Made by a program: the position numbers and the translations under genes | Source of the DNA: an uncultured Gammaproteobacteria bacterium | GTDB taxonomy: Bacteria > Pseudomonadota > Gammaproteobacteria > JAKDMP01 | DNA: 64,000 bases | Direction: 5' to 3' | Assembly (NCBI GenBank): GCA_963843735.1 | Contig: CAWJLN010000009.1 | Coordinates: 232,182 to 296,181, forward strand | Notes under the pieces: generated by a model | Told to the model about the DNA's origin: nothing | The model's input: only the letters and a program-made list of their open reading frames with translations | The model's database searches: none | Shown here: positions 2,646-53,039 of the stretch, piece after piece | Position numbering within the stretch: the stretch's first letter is position 1 | Layout of the letters: the number at the start of each line of letters is the position of its first letter

Positions 2646-3545
2646 ATGGCACGCAGAACGTCCACCTTCGGAAAAATCGCACTCACCTGGGCTTGGCTGG
2701 CGCTCGTCGTCGGTGTCGTCGCCGTGGTGCTCATCGCTGTCGCGGGCCCGCTTTACCGTCACGAGACGATCACCCTCGGCGCCGCCTTCGATCTCCTGCA
2801 CAAAGGCTTCTGGGTCGGCATCGTGGCCGCGGCGGCGGCCGCCGTGGGCCTGATTGCGACGCTCCTCGCCCGACGCCACTTCGCCGTCGTGATCGCACTC
2901 GTTGCGCTTGTGCTCGGAATCGTAGCCTTCGGCTGGCCCTGGATGCTGCTGCGCGAAGCCCGCGCCGCGCCGCCGATCCACGACATCACAACCAATCCCG
3001 CCGCACCGCCGCAGTTCATCGCGCTTGCGGCGCAACGCAAATCCGCGCCCAACGGCCTCGCATACGCCGGCAGCGCCGGCGGTGGCATGGGCAAGGCCGA
3101 ACTCGGGGCACTGTCGCACTTCTTCGCAAGCCCCGCCGGACGGGCGAGCCCCGGCCACGATGCCGCCGTCAAGGCCTGCACAAGCTGGGGGCCGGCGTGC
3201 CTTGCCGCCGTTCAAGACGCTTATTACGCCGACATCCGGCCGTTGCTGGCACCGGGTGCGTCGCCCACGCAGGCATACGACGCCGCACTTGCAACGGCGA
3301 AGGGCATGGGTTGGAAGATTGCCGCCGCCGATGCCGCAAGCCACCACATCGAGGCCAGCGCAACCACGAGCTGGTTCGGCTTTACGGACGACATCGCCAT
3401 TGACGTTTCTCCAAACGGAAGCGGAAGCGTCGTCAACATCCGTTCGGAATCGCGGCTCGGACTTTCCGACGTCGGCATGAATGCAAAGCGCGTACGCGCC
3501 TATCTGCGGCGACTGCAAAAACGCCTGCCCGGTTCGCGCATGTGA
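2646..3545 (+). CDS. DUF1499 family membrane-anchored protein
   Basis: 299 aa; N-terminal TM helices then [14 protein letters not shown]...[23 protein letters not shown] signature. Confidence 0.6.
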
Positions 3546-40466: not shown

Positions 40467-40550
40467 TACCCAATCCGCGTAAATGCCCGCTGCTCATGTT
40501 ACGTGGGCAGCGATTACGCCGCAACGCTGCGGCGCCCGGTTCCGTGAATC

Positions 40551-40973
40551 TCAGGGCGAGGCTTGCCCGCCCTGATCCTCGGGCGCCACGTAGATCGCGT
40601 ACGCCTTGACGCCGGGAGCAGCCGGGTGTCCTCCCACCGACCTGGTAGCTACGCTGCCGCCGCTTGCTGCCCCTTTGCCGATGGGGAGCAGCAGCAGGCC
40701 GTTCGCGCCCAGAAGTCCTGTCTGTCGCCTGAGTTCGATCACGATCTTGCGGTTCGTATCTCCCCCCGAAAAGCCCCCCAGCCCATAACTGTCCAGCTTG
40801 GCAATGATCTGGTAATGCGCCGGTATATGCCCCGGCACATACAGCGTGACCGCATTCGGATTCACCGGCGGGCGAACCGGCCCGACAATCTGCGGCGGCT
40901 GCCGCGATGCGCAAGCCGCAAGCGCAAAGGCCAGAAACAGAAACAGCGGTCCATTCAATCTGTATCTATTCAT
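40551..40973 (-). CDS. lipoprotein of unknown function
   Basis: ATG 40973 with GGAGA SD; MNRYRLNGPLFLFLAFALAACAS lipobox; ATGA overlap with upstream ORF. Confidence 0.55.
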   Translation of the reverse strand: MNRYRLNGPLFLFLAFALAACASRQPPQIVGPVRPPVNPNAVTLYVPGHIPAHYQIIAKLDSYGLGGFSGGDTNRKIVIELRRQTGLLGANGLLLLPIGKGAASGGSVATRSVGGHPAAPGVKAYAIYVAPEDQGGQASP

Positions 40974-41921
40974 AATCCTTTCTCCTTTCCGATTCCGGCG
41001 ATGCCGTATTGCACGGCGTAGGGCATGCCCTGCTTGGGCACGTAGAGCACCCACTTGTACTTCATCCGTATGTTTCCCTTCGGTTTACCGGGATTGGCGG
41101 CCATTGACCCATACGGATCTATTCCCCACCAGCAATGAGGCCACGACGGCGCCGCGCCGTCGCTGCGAAGTTTATAAAGGATGTAAATCTGATACGGCGT
41201 CAACTTGCCGTCCAGACGCAGAGCCTGGAATCGCCATTGCTTCATCGCGACTCTGATCGGCTCCTGTTGCCGCTCGAATGGACTCTTGCCGAGAAAATGG
41301 AATATTGCCTACATGCCCATGCGTATCCACCACGGCGGTAATGGTAACCGCCCCTGTCGGAGGCATTCCCCTGAAATCAGGACACCTGCCCTGCAATTGC
41401 GTTACGTGCAGACCGCTGTCGGGCAGATCATAAAGACCGACCGGCCCGCCCAGCCATTTCTTCACGCCCCAGCCCGCGCCCATATGGGGCGTCACCGCAG
41501 CCAGCGCCGTGCCCACGGCCTGGCGCGCCAACCGCGCCCGCACACCGCCCATGTCGAGCGCCACCCGTCTGACCGCGGCGCTGGGCAAGCCGTTGCGTCC
41601 CGGCGCCAGGGACATCGGCGGCATGACCTTCGCCCTTTGCGTCGTCCCGCCGCGGATGTGCCCCGCGCTCTTCAATCCGTTCGATAAGCGCTTGTGCCGC
41701 TTCGCGTGCGCGGCATTCTCGACGATCCGGGGCTGGAGTTCGGTCAGCGCCGCCGGCACCTTCACGACTGTTTGCGGCTGGCTCGCCAGCCGCTTCTGGT
41801 CAACGGAGATCAACTGTACGCACAAGACGAACAAACCGAGTGCAACAGCCACGGCCAGCGGCAAGGCCCATGCCAGCCGCCGACCGTGGCCGTTGTCGGA
41901 TTGTCGTTTGTTGGTAGCCAT
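40970..41921 (-). pseudogene. membrane-anchored TonB C-terminal-domain-like protein, split by a frameshift
   Basis: ORF 41172-41921 (N-terminal TM, ...GAVTITAVVDTHGHVGNIPF) and ORF 40970-41245 (...MKQWRFQALRLDGKLTPYQIYILYKL) together form a TonB_C-like domain. Removing one T from the T4 run (A4 at 41294-41297 on +) joins them as ...GNIPFLGKSPFERQQEPIRVAMKQWRF... Confidence 0.5.
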
Positions 41922-41936
41922 CTTCCCACAGCGAAA

Positions 41937-42711
41937 TCAAGTGTTATCTTTGATAATGCATACAACGCTACTGCACAAATCCCAGAGCTGAACGTCTATA
42001 TCGTAGATGGTCTGTTTGACTTGTACCGGCTTAAGCCTGGGCGGATCGGGAATAGAAATCGGTTGGATGGGGAGCGGGGGAGTCAATACGGGACCGCCCG
42101 GAGGCAAATTGACTGGTTGTCCGGTATCGTCCAGCGGGTAGTTGTTGGCGTCTTCACCGGTGCCGGACACAAAACTCCATGTCTGGCTGGCGGCGTCCAC
42201 CAATTGATAGACGGCCTTCGACCCATCGGGAAACAGCGTCACTGCTGTTTCGTCCAGGCCGATCGTTTGCCCCGAAAAAAAGCCGTGTATATAGGTTCCG
42301 ACCGTTTGCGATTGACCGCTACCCGTATAACTGCCGGCAACATTCGCGGGAATGTCTACCAGATAACCCGGACTTGCCACCCGCCACGCCTGCTGCATGT
42401 CGGCCACCGAGCGGGTGCGCATGACCGCAAATGTGGTCCAGGTATGCGTTTCACCTTCGTAGTTGCGGGTGACGCCGGCCTTTCCGACCAAGGCCGATCC
42501 GGGGTTCACCACGACAACGCGGTAGCTCCCCTGCGCGAGATTTTGCTGGATAGCCCAGTTTTTGGCCGTATTCTTGAAGTCCGTTACGGTGGAGCAGGTA
42601 TCGCACTCCAACTGGGCGCGGCCATCCCAGGCTTGCGCCGGCATGGCACTAAGAATCAGGACGAGGGCTGCCCCCCCCCCCAAGTAAACGACTGATTGAA
42701 TGAATATTCAT
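41937..42711 (-). CDS. secreted protein of unknown function, out of frame at a G11 tract (possible phase-OFF state)
   Basis: AGGAGG-N8-ATG at 42711 encodes MNIHSISRLLGGG..., but after the homopolymer it hits a stop. The long ORF (TTG 42683, ...AALVLILSAMPAQA|WDG) is in the -1 frame; G10 would fuse them into a normal signal peptide. Confidence 0.55.
42671..42681. repeat. C11 (G11 on coding strand) homopolymer
   Basis: Eleven consecutive C at 42671-42681, inside the signal-peptide coding region. Confidence 0.95.
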
Positions 42712-42886
42712 GATTTGCCCCTCCTGAAGAGACATAGGAGGCCGCGCCGGATGGTGCGGTCGGGCCGTCTTGGCGGCTCACCCTTCAAAATAAACCTATT
42801 TTCAGATTTTGCAAGGGGGCTCTGCCCGAAAACTTCCGGGCCGGAAGCACATCACCGCAATCGAGCCGGATTGTCTGCGTCCGCGC

Positions 42887-44656
42887 TTATCGCCCGCCCT
42901 GTCTCCGTTCTTCCGGCTTCACGGCGGCGGGAATCACGTAGCCTGGAACGAGTTCGGTCATGAATTTGTACCAGGTGCGGAAGTCGCCGTAATTGCCGGC
43001 GGTAAAGCCAACGACCATGTCGAGCTTGGGAATGATCAGTACGAACTGCCCGCCGTTTCCCCCGGCTTCGTAGAGTCTGTACGTTTCGCCGCCGGATTCG
43101 AGATCAATGATGTGCCAGGCAAAGCCGTAGCCATGATCGGGAGCGAATCTCGAATGCACTTGCAGGGATTCCTTGACCCACTTTGAGGCAATGACGCGGC
43201 GCCCGTCCCAGACGCCGTCGTCGAGATAGAGCTGGCCGAGTTTGAGCTGGTCCCGTGGACGCATCTCGATGCCGCCGCCCAGATAGGCGGCGCCCGTCGG
43301 CATCAGGTTGACGTAGTAGCGGCGGATGCCGAGCGGCCGGGCGAAGTAGTCGTAAAAGAATTCTGGGATTGGAATCCCTGTCGTGTTGCGAACGATCCCG
43401 CCCAGCAGATTGATGCCCGCCGAACAATACACGGCCTGTTTTCCTCCAGGCGCACGCGCCATGGGGAGATCGAGCGTATAGAGGTACCAGTCGGGCTGCG
43501 CGTGCTGCCTCTGCATCGTATCTTCGTTGCCCGGTGAATCTCCGCTGTCATCGTCACAGGCGAGTCCGGACGTCATCGTCAACAGATCCTTCACCGTCAT
43601 GGCGCGCTTGCGCGCATCCAGGTTCGCAATCTGCTTGTACTCCGGGAACAGGGAATAGACCGGCGTGTTCAAGTTGAATTTTGCGCCCTGTGCCAACGCG
43701 AGGCCGACGAGCACGCCGGCGAAGGTCTTGCTCGCGGAACGCATCTCGTGAACGCGCTCGCGGTCGTAGCCGTAGAAGTATTTCTCCAGCACCAGCTTGC
43801 CGTGGCGCGCGATCAGCAGGCTGTGGATGTAGGGCGTATGAAAGCCTGCGTAGCGGGTGTCGAGTATGCGCTCGACCAGCGCCCGGAGCGGTTTCGGATT
43901 CAGGCCGACGCCAGTCAGCGACGCCGTACTCCAGCCGTCGTCCTCGCGGATGGGCACGACGTAGGCGTAAGCGGAGGAAGCGGGCGTTTGCGGATAGAAG
44001 CCGAGTGCCGAGTTGCGATTGCGGCGAGTCAGTCTGAGCGGCGCCGCGAGCTGGTTGACGTGCAATTCCAGCACGTCGTTGTCCGCGAGGTACGTTGCGC
44101 TCATTTTGTCCGAGTTGTTGTGCGTGCTCGCGAGAGAGACCGTGTCGCCGGTGATCGTAATCGCGTAGGGATCACCGTGGCCGAAGTTGAACTGCGGATT
44201 GCGAAACGATCCGGAGAGCGTTCCGTCCGCGTTTCCCGTCACGTCGAGATACAGCGACAGCCTTTCAGGAAGCGATGCGAGCTTCCCCTGCCAGACGCCC
44301 GGCTCGATTTGGCGGAGCACCACGGGCGTCGCGTACGCGTTGTTGAAGAGGGTATCCGGCTGCTGGATCCATTGCCCGGAAATTTCCGTGGAGTCCTTGC
44401 CAATCTCGCCGCGGAAGCTGCCCCGGCCGTCGGGAAGCTGAAAGCCGACGCTGCGGCCCTGGTGACGGACGACCGGCGAGAATCCGGCGATGCCGGCGCG
44501 CCAGTTCGACGTGCGCCCGTTGATTACGAGCGTTCCGCCGACGGGCTGGCCGAACATCTTCTCTACTCCCCACAGGCCGGTGAGGTCCGGCGGAGCGGGA
44601 GCCGCCACCGCGACAGACGCGGCCAGCATGGCAATTACGATAAACAATCTGTGCAT
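42887..44656 (-). CDS. serine hydrolase, beta-lactamase/transpeptidase-like (class C fold)
   Basis: ATG 44656 (MHRLFIVIAMLAASVAVAAP signal peptide); SxxK motif MRSASKTF; about 590 aa. Confidence 0.85.
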   Translation of the reverse strand: MHRLFIVIAMLAASVAVAAPAPPDLTGLWGVEKMFGQPVGGTLVINGRTSNWRAGIAGFSPVVRHQGRSVGFQLPDGRGSFRGEIGKDSTEISGQWIQQPDTLFNNAYATPVVLRQIEPGVWQGKLASLPERLSLYLDVTGNADGTLSGSFRNPQFNFGHGDPYAITITGDTVSLASTHNNSDKMSATYLADNDVLELHVNQLAAPLRLTRRNRNSALGFYPQTPASSAYAYVVPIREDDGWSTASLTGVGLNPKPLRALVERILDTRYAGFHTPYIHSLLIARHGKLVLEKYFYGYDRERVHEMRSASKTFAGVLVGLALAQGAKFNLNTPVYSLFPEYKQIANLDARKRAMTVKDLLTMTSGLACDDDSGDSPGNEDTMQRQHAQPDWYLYTLDLPMARAPGGKQAVYCSAGINLLGGIVRNTTGIPIPEFFYDYFARPLGIRRYYVNLMPTGAAYLGGGIEMRPRDQLKLGQLYLDDGVWDGRRVIASKWVKESLQVHSRFAPDHGYGFAWHIIDLESGGETYRLYEAGGNGGQFVLIIPKLDMVVGFTAGNYGDFRTWYKFMTELVPGYVIPAAVKPEERRQGGR

Positions 44657-47136: not shown

Positions 47137-47784
47137 ATGAATGGCATCGTTCGATCGCGAATCCTGCCGGGTATCCTCCTCGTTCTGCTCGCCGTTTGCA
47201 CTGCGGGTTAGAGCAGCGCGGGCGCCGTGCAGGCGCCAGCGGTGGGCCGCTTCCTGGTCGCCACGCCTCCGCAGCAAGATTTCTTCTTCCGGGCCGTGAT
47301 ACTCCTGATCGGCTGCGGACCGGGCGGCGCCTTCGGCGCATCAGCGTCATATCCGGCGGGCGCACTGAAAGCGTTGGCCTGGCGCGGCATCGGGTCGTTT
47401 CGCGGCTGCCACTCGCGGTCGCGCCCTTGAACCCGAACGTGATCTACGCCAGCACCGGCGAGCCATTCCCGCGCGGCGACATGGCGACGGGCGACGACGT
47501 GTGGAAGTCCACCGACGCGGGCAAGACCTGGACCCACGTCGGACTCGACGACACGCGTGTGATCGGCCCCATCGCGATAGATCCGTGCGATGCGAACCAC
47601 GTGTACGTCGCGGCGCTCGGTCATGTATTCGGCCCCAACGCCGAAACTCTCGGCCCAGGCCGACGCCCAGCCGCAGGCGCCCAACAAAGTGAAGTCGCAG
47701 GACATGCCGCAGCTCAATGCAACGATCAAGCAGTCGAACCTGCCGCCCATCACAACCGCCGCGGCACCCGCCACCACCGGTTGA
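47137..47784 (+). pseudogene. remnant of a BNR/Asp-box (sortilin-like) repeat protein gene
   Basis: ATG 47137 signal peptide MNGIVRSRILPGILLVLLAVCTAG, then in-frame TAG (47209-47211). WRGIGSFRG, NPNVIYASTGE...WKSTDAGKTWTHVGL (Asp-box) and C-terminal ...LNATIKQSNLP pieces lie in two different frames; only ~200 codons of a protein family that is normally ~1000 aa. Confidence 0.6.
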
Positions 47785-49947
47785 AAACACGGCGAACGAT
47801 AAGCGCCCTCTCTCCGGCGCCGAAGAGAGGGCGTTTCTTTGTGCGGTAGCCTCCCGGTTCCTTGTCGCTGCTCAAAGAAGCGGTCTGGAGACGCAATCCC
47901 ATTTCTACAGTCAGATCGTCAGGGATACGGAAGAGATCCGTCGCACGCAAAGCGTTGCGGTGCATCAATACGAAGACGCGCTCCGAAATAGCCCGGACCA
48001 GCCCCGCCTTTTCCTGGATACGATGCGGCGGTTCCGTCGGGTTCCGTTTCCCGAGCCATTGAACGAGAACCCAACGCCGAAAGCGAAGCAGAGGTCCTCC
48101 GTAAACTGCCGGCACCAATGTCTCTCTCCCGAAGTAGAACGTCATTTCAGAGGGAACCAGCTTGAGCAGGCCGCGATCCGATGCCCGCTTCAGACTCTCC
48201 AGCACGCGCTGTTCCTGCTTGAACCCGTAATAAAGCTGTACGCGGTAAATTCCGTAGCCCAAGGGCGTAATGTCGATCCTCTTGGCCGACATGACCATCG
48301 GCTCATCGGTTGTAAACACCGAAAGGAGCAAGACCTGCTGATGCAGAACTTGATTGTGCCTTAAATGATAGTTGAACATCGGCGGCACGCCCAGCCCGGG
48401 CGAGGTCAGAAAAACTCCCGTGCCCGGATACCCGGTGCGGCATATCGCTGCCCAGTTCGATCCAGGAATACCGGCAGGGGCTCGGTGCGCGCTTGCAGGG
48501 CCTTGATCAGGCGCGCCCGATTCTTTGTCCAGATCCGCATGATCGCAAAAGCCGCCAGTGCAACGGCCAGCGGCACCCATCCGCCCTGGCCGATCTTGAG
48601 CATATTGGCCGCCCAGAACGGAATATCAATCACCAGAAACACCGTTGTGAGCAACGCTGCCGGCAACAGTCTCCATTGCCATACGTGGCGCATCACCCCG
48701 AACATGAGCATGGTAGTGATAAGCATGGTCGTACTGATGGCGATGCCGTAGGCGCCGCCAAGCGCACTCGAACTTCTGAAACTCAACACCAGGATGATCG
48801 TGGCGATCATCAGCAGGGTGTTCACGAACGGGACGTAGACCTGACCACGCTCCGTACGCGAGGTACGCACAACCTTCATCCGCGGACTCATGTTCAGTGC
48901 GATCGATTGGGAGATCAGCGAAAACGAACCAGAGATCGCCGCCTGCGATGCAATTACGGTGGCGATCGTCGCCAGCGCGACCATCGGATAGAGCATGCCG
49001 TGCGGGACGAGTCCGAATACGGTGCTCGGTGCGGAAGCGGGGTTCCTGAGAATCATTCCACCCTGGCCGAGGTAATTCAGGAGCAGCGCCGGAAACGCGA
49101 CCAGGAACCACCCGAAGCGTACGGGATTGGCGCCGAAGTGGCCGATGTCGGCATACAGCACCTCACCGCCAGTGACGACCAGAAACACGGCTCCGAGCGC
49201 GAAGAAACCTTCCATCCTGTGGTGCGCGAGGAAAGCAACCGCGTATGCAGGGTTGAAGGCAGCGAGGATAAGCGGCGACTGCACGACGGAAATCGCACCG
49301 GACACCGCCAGCACCGCGAACCAGATGCAAATCAGCGGACTGAAGATTATGGAGACGCCTTTCGTGCCGCGCCGCTGAAACCAGAAAAGCAGGAACAGGA
49401 TGATGCAGGTGATCGGAAGAATCAGCGGGTGAAAGCTTGGCGTGATCTGGCCCAGACCTTCGACCGCCGAAAGTACCGAGATAGCCGGCGTAATCATGCC
49501 ATCCCCATAGATCAGGCAGGCGCCGAAAGTGCCCAGTATCAGCACCCAGACGCCGACCCGCACCCTTTGTCTGCGTTTGGCGGCACCGACCGGACGACGC
49601 TGCAGGCCCGGACGGGCGCCGCGCCCGCGCAGAAGCGCCATGAGCGCAAGGACTCCGCCCTCGCCGCGGTTGTCTGCGCGCAGCACGAAGGTTTGGTACT
49701 TGAAGCAGATGACCAGGATCAACGACCAGATCACCAGCGAGAGTACGCCCAGCACCTCCGAAGGTGTCGGTGGATGTCCCAGGGGCGCCAGGGAAAGCGA
49801 TACTGCATACAGCGGACTCGTCCCGATGTCGCCGAAGACCACGCCCAGCGTCAGAAAGGAGAGATAGGCCAGCCGCCTCCGCTCCGCAACGCGCAGATTT
49901 TCTGCACCGAAGCCACGGCGTCTCTTGAAGGGATTTGGAAACCGCAT
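47750..49947 (-). pseudogene. kup: KUP/HAK/KT potassium transporter, frameshifted
   Basis: Membrane part (ATG 49947, VVFGDIGTSPLY) ends at TGA 48406. The cytoplasmic domain (YPGTGVFLTSPGLGVPPMFNYHLRHNQVLHQQVLLLSV...RIPDDLTVEMGLRLQ) continues in another frame to 47750. One extra G in the G3 run (C3 48431-48433) restores ...APGYPGTGVFLT. The tail reads through the 47.8-kb terminator hairpin. Confidence 0.75.
47803..47840 (+). terminator. rho-independent terminator
   Basis: GCGCCCTCTCT-ccggcgccga-AGAGAGGGCG followed by TTTCTTT. Confidence 0.65.
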
Positions 49948-50193
49948 GTATCGCCTGCTCTTCGCACGAAGTAGTTCAGCCGTTGGATAACCTTGAGGCG
50001 CAGCTGCAAAACCACAGATCTGCACCGTCCGGCCGTTGATCTTCCTTCGTCCGGTTGTGCCAGTTGGGAGCAGAGATTAGAGGCAGCTTGCGTAAAATTG
50101 CTATGTGGAAACAGGACCCGGGCGTAAATTTTCCGTAAAGACCCGAGCCGACGCGTCACGGTAGCGGAATCGCAACGACGAACCTTGAAAAGG

Positions 50194-50901
50194 TTATGGC
50201 TTAAGTGTCAGGCCGCCAAGCAACCGGTAACCGACTCCGGGCTCGTTGGCGATAAAGCGGGGATTGACCGGATCGTCTCCCAGCTTCTGCCGGAGTTGGC
50301 GAACGTAGATCCGAAGATAATGGGTATCTTCAAGGTGTGCTGGACCCCAGACTTCGCGCAATAGCGTCTTGTGCGTCAGGACCTTGCCGACATGGCGCAC
50401 AAGCAGTGCGAGCAGTGCGAATTCCCTGGGCGTGAGCTTTACGATTTCTCCATCGACGACGACCCTATGCTGCTCCGGATCGACGACCAGGCCACCAATC
50501 TCAATCGGGCCCGTGGTCCACGGCGCCTCACCTCCCGAACGCAGAGCCGCACGGATTCGGGCCAGCAGCTCTCCGACCGCGAACGGCTTCGCGACGAAGT
50601 CATTCGCCCCTGCGTCAAGCGCTTTTATTTTTTCGGTTTCGCTGCCGCGCACCGAGAGAACGATAATGGGAACCTGGCTTCGCGCCCGTATCGCCAGAAT
50701 CACGTCTTGACCGTCCGCGTCCGGCAGTCCCAGGTCGAGGAGTACCAGATCCAGACTGTCTCTCTCCAGAGACTGAAGCGCAGCCGCCGCGCTCGCCGCC
50801 TCGATGACATGATGACCCGCGGCCGTCAGACTGATGCGCAGAAACTTGCGGATCGGAGCCTCGTCGTCAACGATCAGAATCTTCGCATGATCGATACTCA
50901 T
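50194..50901 (-). CDS. kdpE: OmpR-family response regulator KdpE
   Basis: ATG 50901 (MSIDHAKILIVDDE...), receiver + winged-helix (...GVGYRL); canonical ATGA overlap with the shifted-frame kdpD stop. Confidence 0.85.
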   Translation of the reverse strand: MSIDHAKILIVDDEAPIRKFLRISLTAAGHHVIEAASAAAALQSLERDSLDLVLLDLGLPDADGQDVILAIRARSQVPIIVLSVRGSETEKIKALDAGANDFVAKPFAVGELLARIRAALRSGGEAPWTTGPIEIGGLVVDPEQHRVVVDGEIVKLTPREFALLALLVRHVGKVLTHKTLLREVWGPAHLEDTHYLRIYVRQLRQKLGDDPVNPRFIANEPGVGYRLLGGLTLKP

Positions 50902-52938
50902 CTCCGTGCCGTCTCCGGTCTCGGCGGCTGAGGGAATTCCATCTCGAACCGCGCACCGCGTCCGCCCGCGCCGCTTCCCAAAGTAATACTGCCGTCCAAT
51001 ACCTTGACCAGATACCCGACAGATGGCCAACCCGAGTCCCGTTCCGGCGATTTGACGGTCGCCCTTGTCCACCCGGTAAAACATGTCGAAAACCCGTTCC
51101 CGCTCCGCTGGCGGAACCCCCGGACCCTTGTCCTCGACCGCCATGCGCAAACGGTGCGGGGTCTGCATAGTCGCGGCGATAAGAAGCGTTGATCCCGGCG
51201 GTGCGTATTTCGCGGCGTTGTCCAAAAGGTTCACCAGTATCTGTTCCATGAGGACCGCATCGGTGTGGATCATGCAGTCCTCGGGCGCACGCAGGTCGAT
51301 GACTAACCCCGCGAGCGCGGTGCGCAGCCTCCGCGAGGCTTCGCCGACGATGTCGTGCAAGTCGTGCCATCCGAAATTCGGCGTGATCGCGCCGTAGCCG
51401 AGCCGCGTCATGTCGAGCAGGTTCTGCACAAAGCGGTTGAGCCGCTCGGCCTCGCCGAGGAGCCCCTTGAGCAGTTCGCGCGACGCTTTTTCGTCGAGAC
51501 GCGGTCCCATTTCAAGCAGGGAACTGGCAGCACCGATGATAGAAACCAGCGGCGTGCGCAGGTCGTGTGAAACGGATGAGAGCAGCGCCGCGCGCAACCG
51601 CTCGGTTTCCGCCGTCAGTTTCGTTTGCGCGATCTCGGCCGACAGACGTTCCTTTTCGAGCGCGACGGACGCCTGATCACGCAGCGCGCAGGCGACTCTG
51701 CGATTCATCCCTGACAGGCGTTTCCCGGCATCGCCCACTCCCAGTCCGATGACTCCCAGACTGCGGCCGCCACTGCGCATGGGCATGAAATACCAATCGC
51801 TGTCAGGCGACGCCTTCGTTCCGCATCCAGCAGACTCGACATGCTCAAACGCCCACATCGCAGCCGCACGATCCTCCGCCGTCAGGGCAAAGCCCGCGCT
51901 GCTCTCGTTGCCATTTTCCAGCATTCCTCCGGATTCCAAAAGGATGACGGCATCCGTCTTCAGGGCGTCTTTAAGGTATTCCGGAAGTTTGCGAACGATG
52001 TCGCCCTGACCGGCAGACGCATTAAGTCGCTTACTGAACTCGTATAGAAGGGAATTGACACGGCCGTTGTCGCGAATAAGCTGCATCTGTCGGCGAAGGC
52101 GTCCTCCGAGCTGCCCTACCAATAAAGCGACGAGAAGAAAAAAAGTAATCGTGAAAACATCTTCCCGGCTCGCCACGCGAAACGTATAAAGCGGTTCGGT
52201 AAAAAGGAAATTGAAGGTCAGGAAACTCAGGATAGCCGTGGCCAAAGCCGCTCCGCGCCCGTAGCGCACAGCAACGACCAGCACTCCCAGCAAGAAGACG
52301 AGGCTCAAATTGGGTGTGCTTAGCGAATGAGCCAGCAACCAGCTGAGTCCCGTGGCTACCGCAGTCGCCAGTATCCCGAAAAAATAGCCCTCCAGTACCG
52401 GCTGTTGCCAATGCCAATCGACTGCCGTCTTATCGCGGCCTTCAGGCGTGGACGTCACCACCGTGATCGCAAGGCTCAGACTTCCGGCCCGTCGCAAAAG
52501 AGCCACGGCTAGAGACGGACGAAGCATGAGCCATCGCCAGGAGCGCCGCGAACGCCCAAGGACTATCTGTGTGACGCCGTGACTCTCAGCGTAGGCAAGG
52601 ATCTCGGCAACGAGATCATGCCCGGTGAGAGAAACGACCTCGGCGCCAAGCTGCTCGGCCAGTTGCAGCGCAGCCTGAAGCCATTTTTGTCCTGCAATGC
52701 CCTCGATTCCCAGTGCAGCGACATGCGCGACGGTCCAGCTTCCATCGCTCCGGCCAGCCATGCGTCTGCCGAGTCTTATGAGACCTTCTGCGCCTGCGCC
52801 ACCGACAAGAACCATCAATTGATCCCGTTGTGCGAGATGACCATTGCTGCTGCCCGAGCTTGTCGACTCGACAGAAACGTCTATGCATGCCGACTTCGAC
52901 GGCGCTTCCGGAGAAGGACGCCCAACATCGCCACCCAT
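50898..52938 (-). pseudogene. kdpD: sensor kinase KdpD, 5'-truncated and frameshifted near the 3' end
   Basis: Begins inside the Usp-like region (no N-terminal KdpD/P-loop domain). TM block, SHDLRTPL (HisKA), NLLDNAAKYAPPGS...GTGLGLAICR (HATPase). After AICR the track frame is nonsense and runs into kdpE (914-aa ORF), whereas a shifted frame gives GYLVKVLDGSITLGSGAGGRGARFEMEFPQP...ARR-TGA at 50898-50900. Shift near the C3 run 51015-51017. Confidence 0.7.
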
Positions 52939-53039
52939 GCTGCAACCGGGCGATCGGGAGGGCTTCTAGGATAACGGAGTGGCTGCCGGCTTGGCGTCTT
53001 CAACGTGTGCCGGCCGGGGCAAGAAGCGCTTCCAATCCA

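What the first reader, a model, noticed from the sequence alone, without database searches (positions are those of the whole stretch)
42661..42727. C11 homopolymer uncouples a strong SD-ATG from its secreted-protein ORF: candidate phase-variation switch
On the minus strand AGGAGG-N8-ATG (42711) starts MNIHSISRLLGGG.... After the G11 run (42671-42681) this frame terminates at TAG 42649-42651, giving a 20-aa product. The 248-aa ORF (...AALVLILSAMPAQA|WDGRAQLE...) is in the adjacent frame and has only an SD-less TTG start (42683). With G10 (or G13) the two parts form one ORF with a textbook signal peptide, MNIHSISRLLGGGAALVLILSAMPAQA. A homopolymer at the 5' end of a surface or secreted gene that heads an operon is the classic slipped-strand ON/OFF arrangement. 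It is equally the classic site for a sequencing error.
Basis: partly seen in the sequence, partly recalled or inferred. Interest (0 to 1): 0.6.

Follow-up and report, generated by a model that had tools for sequence, protein, structure and literature searches.

The report
Poly-G on/off switch, secreted protein
A run of eleven G's splits the export signal of an unknown secreted protein in an uncultured soil gammaproteobacterium; relatives carry slippery repeats of varying length at the same spot or in the promoter, so it is very probably a classic mutational on/off switch, though the exact length recorded in this error-prone assembly cannot be trusted.

Summary
G11 lies at 42671-42681 on the minus strand, between AGGAGG-N8-ATG (42711) and the hydrophobic core of a signal peptide. 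G10 or G13 gives one 257/258-aa ORF; G11 stops after 20 aa.

Comparison supports the switch reading:
- The gene belongs to a small orphan family (about 25 representatives, no Pfam, no PDB fold match).
- Close relatives have a poly-G at the same signal-peptide codons: G7 in frame in four loci, G9 and G6 out of frame.
- One relative has (CTCACAA)x4 there, also out of frame.
- In all four OFF cases the repeat is the only lesion.
- Core dN/dS between the window and the G9 homologue is 0.19.
- A second, multi-copy subfamily carries G5-G14 in the spacer between TTGACA and TAGGGT-like -10 boxes. Its length differs between near-identical paralogues.

Caveat: this assembly has other frame breaks (gene 2 of the same operon, kup, kdpD/kdpE). 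No read or contig from a served run crosses the tract. G11 versus G10 is therefore unresolved.

Verdict: a probable slipped-strand phase-variation locus, a new member of a known kind, in a soil lineage where few are known.

The parts
42671..42681 (-). G11 homopolymer (C11 on the + strand), the slippage-prone tract. ON lengths are 10 or 13; the recorded 11 is OFF.
42709..42725 (-). Shine-Dalgarno AGGAGG (42725-42720), 8-nt spacing, ATG start (42711-42709)
   Evidence: The same AGGAGGG-N7-ATGAATATTCATTC is in homologue L001.
42630..42711 (-). Signal-peptide coding region, split by the tract: n-region MNIHSISRLL, Gly run, h-region AALVLILSA, c-region MPAQA, cleavage before WDG
   Evidence: N-termini of relatives.
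42649..42651 (-). TAG that ends the 20-aa product of the ATG frame at G11
41937..42683 (-). Main ORF (248 aa from an SD-less TTG): orphan secreted protein with an invariant CxxC after the signal peptide, a C-terminal Cys pair and a confidently modelled core with no PDB match
42712..42781 (-). About 70 nt of structured 5' leader, conserved with L001. It includes CCUCCU (42741-42736), which pairs with the SD, and a middle hairpin with two compensatory pair changes.
   Evidence: no Rfam match
42787..42814 (-). Putative promoter TTGCAA-16 nt-TATTTT (8 of 12 to consensus, below the scan threshold). TTGCAAAATCTG-AAAA-TAGGTT resembles the subfamily-B promoter TTGACAAATCTC-Gn-TAGGGT with the G tract replaced.
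   Evidence: Read; not reported by the scan. Inference.
40970..41921 (-). Gene 2: membrane-anchored protein of about 315 aa, conserved partner. In the window it is split over two frames near 41291-41299 (TTTTCTC), not at a long repeat.
40551..40973 (-). Gene 3: small lipoprotein (MNRYRLNGPLFLFLAFALAAC...), conserved partner in both subfamilies

Best explanation
The G tract is a slipped-strand (simple-sequence-repeat) phase-variation switch. It sits inside the signal-peptide codons of an orphan secreted protein that heads a three-gene envelope module (secreted CxxC protein, membrane-anchored protein, lipoprotein).

Proposed mechanism. Replication slippage adds or removes a G. With 10 or 13 G's, ribosomes starting at the SD-ATG make a pre-protein with a normal Sec signal peptide. 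With 11 G's they stop after 20 codons, and the mature part can at best be made without an export signal. Untranslated gene-1 mRNA would probably also lower expression of the two downstream genes through polarity.

Shown here: the frame arithmetic; homology of the joined N-terminus to intact relatives; repeats of differing length and both ON and OFF states at the same site across the family; a promoter-spacer version of the same device in the sister subfamily; purifying selection on the body of the gene.

Inferred, not shown: switching within one population, its rate and reversibility, polarity on genes 2 and 3, and the true tract length in this organism. I put G11 at about 50%, with G10 the main alternative.
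For: Searches give the anatomy and the ON/OFF lengths.

The same site in relatives:
- L001 (64% aa identity) has G9 at the same codons, OFF, with ON at 7 or 10.
- L050, L164, L051/L052 and L055 have G7 in frame.
- L053, a MEGAHIT contig, has G6, OFF, with ON at 5 or 8.
- L054, a MEGAHIT contig, has (CTCACAA)x4.6 between ATG and the h-region, OFF, with ON at 3 or 6 copies.

In every OFF case the remaining ORF is intact for 255-263 aa. Window versus L001: core dN/dS 0.19 at dS about 1.07. GGG is only about 25% of Gly codons elsewhere in these genes, yet the Gly-Gly site is GGG-GGG in all tract-bearing lineages.

Subfamily B comprises 21 loci in MAGs, up to 6 copies per genome. It has G5-G14 between TTGACA and TAnnnT, giving spacers of 12-20 nt. 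Near-identical paralogues in one MAG have G6, G7, G10 and G14. Twelve of 18 G/C runs of 8 or more in 117 kb of these loci sit at that promoter spot.

Illumina metatranscriptome contigs match the gene body at 99-100% identity.
Against: - No read or contig crosses the tract in any served run, so there is no evidence of length heterogeneity within a population.
- The assembly is indel-prone: gene 2 of the same operon is frameshifted at a non-repeat site, kup is split, and kdpD runs into kdpE. Earlier unchecked notes list more breaks elsewhere, in mreB and lptD. An 11-base homopolymer is the most error-prone kind of site, so the OFF state may be an artefact.
- L002 agrees on G11 but is probably from the same run.
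- Poly-G can also occur harmlessly in frame, e.g. G9 in an AspRS GGGSIRIH motif in L067.
- L077, L165 and L166-168 lack any tract, so the repeat is not universal in the family.
Confidence: 0.7

Rival explanations
1. Pure assembly or base-calling error at a stable tract. The organism has G10, the gene is simply on, and the Gly-Gly-Gly run has no switching role.
For: There are at least three other frame breaks in this 64-kb window. A 498-kb contig from soil suggests a long-read assembly; that is an inference. Earlier notes e1-3225393 and e1-1477157 report breaks in essential genes elsewhere in the genome (unchecked). Long homopolymers are the classic long-read error site (my own knowledge).
Against: This explains the recorded state at most, not the family pattern. 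OFF states also occur in MEGAHIT/Illumina contigs at G6 and at a 7-nt repeat. Tract lengths differ between near-identical paralogues in Illumina MAGs. The all-GGG codon choice is kept at a site where synonymous positions are saturated. An independent k-mer assembly of ERR11571143 also gives G11, although it may use the same reads.
Confidence: 0.17
2. Decay: the operon is being lost in this strain, and the frameshifts in gene 1 and gene 2 are fixed inactivating mutations.
For: There are two frame breaks in one three-gene operon, one of them not at a repeat. A neighbouring K+ locus also looks degraded.
Against: Gene 1 has no other lesion over 248 codons. Core dN/dS against L001 is 0.19. Metatranscriptome contigs from soil match the gene body. 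A break exactly at the tract is what a reversible switch gives. The gene-2 break may itself be an assembly error.
Confidence: 0.08
3. Programmed recoding: the out-of-frame arrangement is the normal state, and it is read through by ribosomal frameshifting or RNA-polymerase slippage on the G run.
For: Two close homologues (the window and L001) are both out of frame. Long homopolymers can cause transcriptional slippage (my own knowledge, mainly for A/T runs).
Against: The two need opposite corrections (-1 and +1 base). Five related loci are simply in frame. No conserved shift site or stimulatory structure follows the tract. In L001 the ATG frame meets a stop directly after the run.
Confidence: 0.05

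Closest known systems
Neisseria gonorrhoeae/meningitidis pilC1/pilC2: poly-G tract within the signal-peptide coding sequence (PMC13017665, citing Jonsson et al.)
   Same: A homopolymeric G run inside the signal-peptide codons of an exported protein. Length changes by slippage shift the frame and switch the protein on or off.
   Different: The protein is unrelated (PilC is a type IV pilus tip adhesin; this is an orphan of about 230 aa with a CxxC motif and no fold match). The lineage is an uncultured soil bacterium, not a host-restricted pathogen. Switching has not been shown here experimentally.
Gardnerella NanH3 sialidase: poly-C (8-14) just after the signal peptide (bioRxiv 10.1101/2020.09.16.300947)
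   Same: A 5'-proximal G/C homopolymer of 8-14 in a secreted-protein gene. Only every third length gives the full protein. Different strains sit at different lengths.
   Different: There the tract follows the signal peptide, so OFF forms still carry it; here the tract splits the signal peptide. In Gardnerella, length heterogeneity was shown by clone sequencing; here it is only inferred from comparison.
Promoter-spacer poly-G/C switches: N. meningitidis porA and opc, Bordetella fim genes (my own knowledge; general classes in PMC5953494 and PMC11868660)
   Same: Subfamily B of this gene family has G5-G14 between a TTGACA -35 box and a TAGGGT-like -10 box, giving spacers of 12-20 nt.
   Different: The window's own promoter has no tract; its switch is translational. 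One relative (L164) has both a G6 in the promoter spacer and a G7 in the ORF.
Poly-G promoter 'phasomes' of uncultured gut Bacilli and a rumen alphaproteobacterium noted earlier in this scan (e1-1389719, e1-1098377, e1-4068838)
   Same: Orphan secreted-protein families in uncultured bacteria carry length-variable poly-G tracts.
   Different: Those are host-associated and promoter-only. This family comes from soil and other environmental MAGs and uses promoter, in-ORF homopolymer and heptanucleotide repeats.

Membership tests
SSR-mediated translational phase variation (contingency locus) | A simple-sequence repeat long enough to be hypermutable (G/C run of about 8 or more) | tested here: met
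   G11 at 42671-42681. The length threshold is from my own knowledge.
SSR-mediated translational phase variation (contingency locus) | The repeat is placed so that a one-unit change toggles the reading frame between a full-length and a truncated product | tested here: met
   Length scan: ON at 10 or 13; stop after 17-21 aa otherwise.
SSR-mediated translational phase variation (contingency locus) | Repeat length differs between related strains or lineages while the flanks are conserved, with both ON and OFF alleles | tested here: met
   G11, G9, G7 (four loci) and G6 at the same site, plus (CTCACAA)x4 in one relative; 4 of 9 distinct loci are OFF.
SSR-mediated translational phase variation (contingency locus) | Length heterogeneity within one population or clone | tested here: inconclusive
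   No read or contig crosses the tract in the served runs.
SSR-mediated translational phase variation (contingency locus) | High-frequency, reversible switching of the phenotype | not testable with these tools
   Needs a culture or reporter constructs.
SSR-mediated translational phase variation (contingency locus) | The rest of the gene is intact and under purifying selection (not a pseudogene) | tested here: met
   Intact 248-codon ORF. Core dN/dS 0.19 against L001. All OFF relatives are intact downstream.
Promoter-spacer homopolymer switch (porA/opc/fim type) | Homopolymer between the -35 and -10 hexamers, so that its length sets the spacer | tested here: not met
   The window promoter region (42787-42814) has no tract. 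The feature is met only in subfamily B relatives and in L164 and L169.
Programmed frameshift / transcriptional slippage gene | The out-of-frame arrangement is conserved in homologues, with one fixed shift direction | tested here: not met
   Five relatives are in frame. The OFF relatives need corrections of different sign.
Assembly indel artefact | Other frame breaks in conserved genes of the same assembly | tested here: met
   kup is split into K_trans and K_trans_C frames. kdpD HATPase_c is cut at 82/111 and fused to kdpE. Gene 2 is split.
Assembly indel artefact | Independent high-accuracy data give a different, frame-restoring length | tested here: inconclusive
   Only L002 covers the tract. 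It gives G11 but is probably from the same sample.

The most novel reading that the evidence does not exclude
An uncultured environmental (soil, sediment) proteobacterial group runs a whole orphan family of secreted CxxC proteins as a contingency system. The proteins have no match to any solved fold, are paired with a small lipoprotein and often a membrane-anchored protein, and occur in up to six copies per genome. The slippery repeat has been installed independently at three places: promoter spacer, signal-peptide codons, and a heptanucleotide repeat. That would be one of the first SSR 'phasomes' described in free-living soil bacteria. It would point to a strong fluctuating selection on this envelope module, most plausibly phage or predator recognition.
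Probability: 0.45. Interest if true: 0.65.

Novelty: new member of a known kind. Interest (0 to 1): 0.5.

Why it matters
Repeat-driven phase variation is known almost entirely from pathogens and commensals of animals. A 2025 review names soil and ocean bacteria as a knowledge gap (PMC11868660). Here a gene family with no annotation, in uncultured soil and other environmental Proteobacteria, shows the signatures of such switches in three forms: promoter poly-G, signal-peptide poly-G and a 7-nt repeat.

This flags the family and its lipoprotein and membrane partners as envelope components under fluctuating selection. It also gives a concrete target for amplicon or read-level tests in existing soil metagenomes.

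There is a practical consequence as well. Gene callers truncate these genes, and long-read polishing may wrongly 'fix' or break them.

Tried and rejected
- The search for related loci with the single protein in genome contigs and with the pair alignment in metagenome contigs found nothing.
- Exact scans for the conserved leader AAATCATGAATATTCATTC gave 47 loci, all chance matches with no relative.
- Alignments A3 and A5 were too divergent for pattern searches.
- A second word-based protein search added nothing.
- Sequencing runs: only low-depth soil metagenomes and metatranscriptomes hold fragments, and none crosses the tract.
- Rfam found no family in the leader.
- Pfam found no family for any of the three operon genes, even at E=1.
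- Foldseek against the PDB gave no hit below E=0.02, with TM 0.2 or lower.
- The AlphaFold model of gene 2 was unusable (pLDDT 39).
- I rejected the upstream frame that the gene caller used for P0002 (MSRQDG...). It starts at or before the predicted transcription start, has no SD, and covers the structured leader.
- I corrected my first hand estimate for L053: its ON lengths are 5 or 8, not 7.

Full report
**1. The observation**

Read on the minus strand, the region is AGGAGG (42725-42720), 8 nt, ATG (42711-42709), AAT ATT CAT TCA ATC AGT CGT TTA CTT, then eleven G (42681-42671), then CAGCCCTCGTCC... The ATG frame gives MNIHSISRLLGGGGSPRPDS and stops at TAG 42651-42649.

The long ORF (42683..41937, 248 aa) is in the next frame. 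Its only start is an SD-less TTG formed by the last T before the run. A length scan shows that 10 or 13 G's fuse the two parts into one ORF of 257/258 aa beginning MNIHSISRLLGGGAALVLILSAMPAQA|WDG. All other lengths from 8 to 14 stop after 17-21 codons.

This is the only G/C run of 8 or more in the window. Five of 100 dinucleotide-preserving shuffles reached three or more G9 matches, as observed.

**2. What the gene is**

- Pfam finds nothing for the protein or for the two genes downstream.
- An exhaustive HMMER search of 1.84 billion representatives finds 29 proteins, 23 below 1e-10.
- These are proteins of about 230-320 aa with a signal peptide, an invariant CxxC just after the cleavage site, a conserved (V/I)AxT(F/Y)TG(S/T)xQ block and a C-terminal Cys pair.
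- An AlphaFold model has a confident core (residues 20-195, pLDDT about 90) but no match in the PDB (best E 0.02, TM 0.2 or lower).
- The neighbours are conserved: a membrane-anchored protein of about 310 aa and a small lipoprotein follow the gene in the close relatives. The lipoprotein also follows it in many distant ones.
- PntB places the organism among uncultured Gammaproteobacteria: 88% identity to MAG SE1508_metabat2.bin.13 and 82% to MAG SRP187154_co1_354, which also carries a family member.
- Illumina soil metatranscriptome contigs match the gene body at 99-100% identity, so the gene is probably transcribed in situ. DNA carry-over cannot be excluded.

**3. The ATG is the true start**

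Intact relatives begin MRNLSILVGGLLALVFILAAPPAHA|NG, MSRFKLIGGVALLLFSSLFSTNALA|DG and MLHFKIIGGVVVALLLASLFSAPALA|NG. This is the same architecture as the joined window sequence, with a Gly-Gly at the n/h boundary.

The upstream frame that a gene caller used for the closest homologue (P0002, MSRQDG...) is not coding. It starts at the predicted transcription start, has no SD, and covers a structured leader.

**4. Subfamily A: the repeat at the same site in relatives**

I fetched the DNA of nine distinct close relatives.

| Locus | Source | Repeat | State | ON lengths |
|---|---|---|---|---|
| window | this assembly | G11 | OFF | 10, 13 |
| L001 (64% aa identity) | Logan contig | G9 | OFF; stop directly after the run | 7, 10 |
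| L050, L164 | Logan contig; MEGAHIT contig | G7 | ON | - |
| L051/L052 | NCBI MAG contig; Logan contig | G7 | ON | - |
| L055 | NCBI assembly contig | G7 | ON | - |
| L053 | MEGAHIT contig | G6 | OFF | 5, 8 |
| L054 | MEGAHIT contig | (CTCACAA)x4.6, no G run | OFF | 3, 6 copies |
| L077 | MAG | interrupted GGGAG | ON | - |

L054 at three heptamer copies would read MKLTTHNSQLRILALVTALLLIAPVASVWG|SN.

So four of nine loci are OFF, each by the repeat alone, with 255-263 intact codons behind it. Two of the four are short-read assemblies, where a G6 or a 7-nt repeat is not an error-prone site.

Between the window and L001 the core has dN/dS 0.19 at dS about 1.07. The gene has therefore been under purifying selection for nearly all of their divergence, and the OFF states are recent.

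Outside the tract only about a quarter of Gly codons are GGG. Yet the Gly-Gly site is GGG-GGG, flanked by a further G, in every tract-bearing lineage, although synonymous sites are saturated at these distances. That argues for selection on the DNA run itself.

**5. Subfamily B: the repeat in the promoter**

A pattern search of species-representative genomes found 21 loci in 'Proteobacteria bacterium' MAGs assembled with SPAdes or MEGAHIT. Several copies occur per genome: six in LSA3.bin15, and three each in clean41, clean240 and YP2.bin4.

Nearly all have, 70-80 nt before the ATG, TTGACA-AATCTC-G(n)-TAGGGT/TATGGT with n from 5 to 14. The resulting -35/-10 spacers are 12 to 20 nt. Paralogues of one MAG with almost identical flanks have G6, G7, G10 and G14. 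Orthologues in three samples have G8, G10 and G13.

Twelve of the 18 G/C runs of 8 or more in 117 kb of these loci are at this promoter spot. Two scaffolds have N gaps right at the tract (L059, L075).

One subfamily-A relative (L164) has both a G6 in a TTGACT-17-TACTTT promoter and the G7 in the ORF.

The window's own upstream region, TTGCAAAATCTG-AAAA-TAGGTT-TATTTT, looks like the subfamily-B promoter with the G run replaced. This is my reading, and it is an inference.

**6. How it most likely works**

This is slipped-strand mispairing at the G run during replication. G10 or G13 gives a pre-protein with a Sec signal peptide. G11 gives a 20-aa peptide, and at best a signal-less product from the weak TTG or from ATG 42644. 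Because gene 1 would then be untranslated for about 700 nt, Rho-dependent polarity probably lowers genes 2 and 3 as well (inference).

The family-wide recurrence of three kinds of slippery repeat at the 5' end argues that variable expression of this envelope module is itself selected. What the module does is unknown. Fluctuating selection by phage or predators is my guess.

**7. The caveat**

The assembly is not clean.
- Gene 2 of this very operon changes frame near 41291-41299, at TTTTCTC, relative to four intact homologues.
- kup is split into K_trans and K_trans_C frames.
- kdpD (HATPase_c cut at 82 of 111) runs into kdpE.
- Earlier first-stage notes, which I could not check, list many more breaks elsewhere in the genome, including mreB and lptD.
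- The contig is 498 kb from a soil sample, which suggests long reads (inference).

An 11-base homopolymer is the worst case for such data. The Logan contig L002 also has G11, but it comes from what is probably the source run. No served run has a read or contig across the tract.

I therefore give about even odds that the population majority is really G11 rather than G10. This uncertainty concerns the state of the switch, not its existence.

**8. Rivals**

- A pure artefact at a stable tract does not explain the Illumina OFF alleles, the paralogue length differences or the codon choice.
- Decay is argued against by the intact ORF, the low dN/dS and the transcript evidence. The gene-2 break keeps this rival alive.
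- Programmed recoding is argued against by the in-frame relatives and by the opposite corrections that the window and L001 would need.

**9. Comparison with known systems**

The device works like pilC of Neisseria, which has a poly-G within the signal-peptide codons (PMC13017665), and like nanH3 of Gardnerella, which has a poly-C of 8-14 next to the signal peptide (bioRxiv 10.1101/2020.09.16.300947). The subfamily-B promoters work like porA, opc and fim (my own knowledge).

It meets the structural and comparative criteria of a contingency locus. Within-population heterogeneity and reversibility remain untested. It is a new member of a known kind.

Three things are new:
- the gene family;
- the lineage and habitat (soil and other environmental Proteobacteria, named as a knowledge gap in PMC11868660);
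- the coexistence of three repeat solutions in one family.

Similar promoter poly-G families have already turned up in this scan in gut and rumen MAGs, which tempers the novelty.

No genome-wide tract census could be made.

Noticed in passing
window 42712-42781 (minus); L001 281-351: The leader of about 70 nt is conserved between the window and L001 and folds into three hairpins. The last pairs CCUCCU with the SD AGGAGG. The middle one shows two compensatory pair changes (CCGCACC/GGCGCGG versus CCAUACC/GGUAUGG). The fold z-score is -3.5 for L001 and -0.9 for the window, and there is no Rfam match. This may be a second, translational layer of control.
   Followed up: partly
window 41285-41305 (minus): Gene 2 of the operon changes frame at ...ATT CCA TTT TCT C|GGC AAG..., where L001 has ATC CGG TTT CGT GGT GGC. 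This is not at a long repeat. The identical Logan contig L002 ends at 41306, just short of it.
   Followed up: partly
window 47753-50076 and 50197-52965 (minus): kup is split into two frames (K_trans and K_trans_C). A truncated kdpD runs without a stop into kdpE. This confirms an earlier first-stage note and shows that the assembly, or the genome, carries several frame breaks.
   Followed up: partly
L058, L060, L065, L066 (one MAG, LSA3.bin15) and 15 other loci: Multi-copy subfamily B of the same protein family has G5-G14 in the spacer between TTGACA and TAGGGT-like boxes (spacers of 12-20 nt). The tract is followed by a conserved leader with a palindrome (e.g. CTTGAGGCAGCTGCCTCAAG).
   Followed up: yes
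L054 2335-2366: A heptanucleotide repeat (CTCACAA)x4.6 lies between ATG and the signal-peptide core of a family member. It is out of frame as assembled, and 3 or 6 copies restore the frame. A gene caller annotated a 33-aa ORF plus a truncated main ORF.
   Followed up: yes
L070 about 3000-3030; L076 about 2960-3000: Two subfamily-B copies have frame breaks inside the signal-peptide codons at short CT/TC-rich stretches rather than at long repeats. They are possible pseudogenes or low-coverage errors (YP2.bin4 is at about 3x).
   Followed up: no
L059 about 2923-2932; L075 about 2852-2861: Runs of N (scaffold gaps) start directly after the promoter poly-G. This suggests the assemblers broke at the tract.
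   Followed up: no
L067 1436-1444: An in-frame G9 encodes the GGGSIRIH motif of aspartyl-tRNA synthetase. It is a useful control showing that not every long G run in these genomes is a switch.
   Followed up: no
window 42074-42665 and 40500-40632: Soil metatranscriptome contigs (X1, and X5/X6, which look like one data set filed twice) match gene 1 and the end of gene 3 at 99-100% identity. The flanking beta-lactamase-family gene is not covered in the regions laid. The X1 contig stops 6 nt short of the tract.
   Followed up: partly
window 42000-42999: G+C is about 58% over gene 1 against 63% for the window: a mild dip, consistent with an accessory gene.
   Followed up: no
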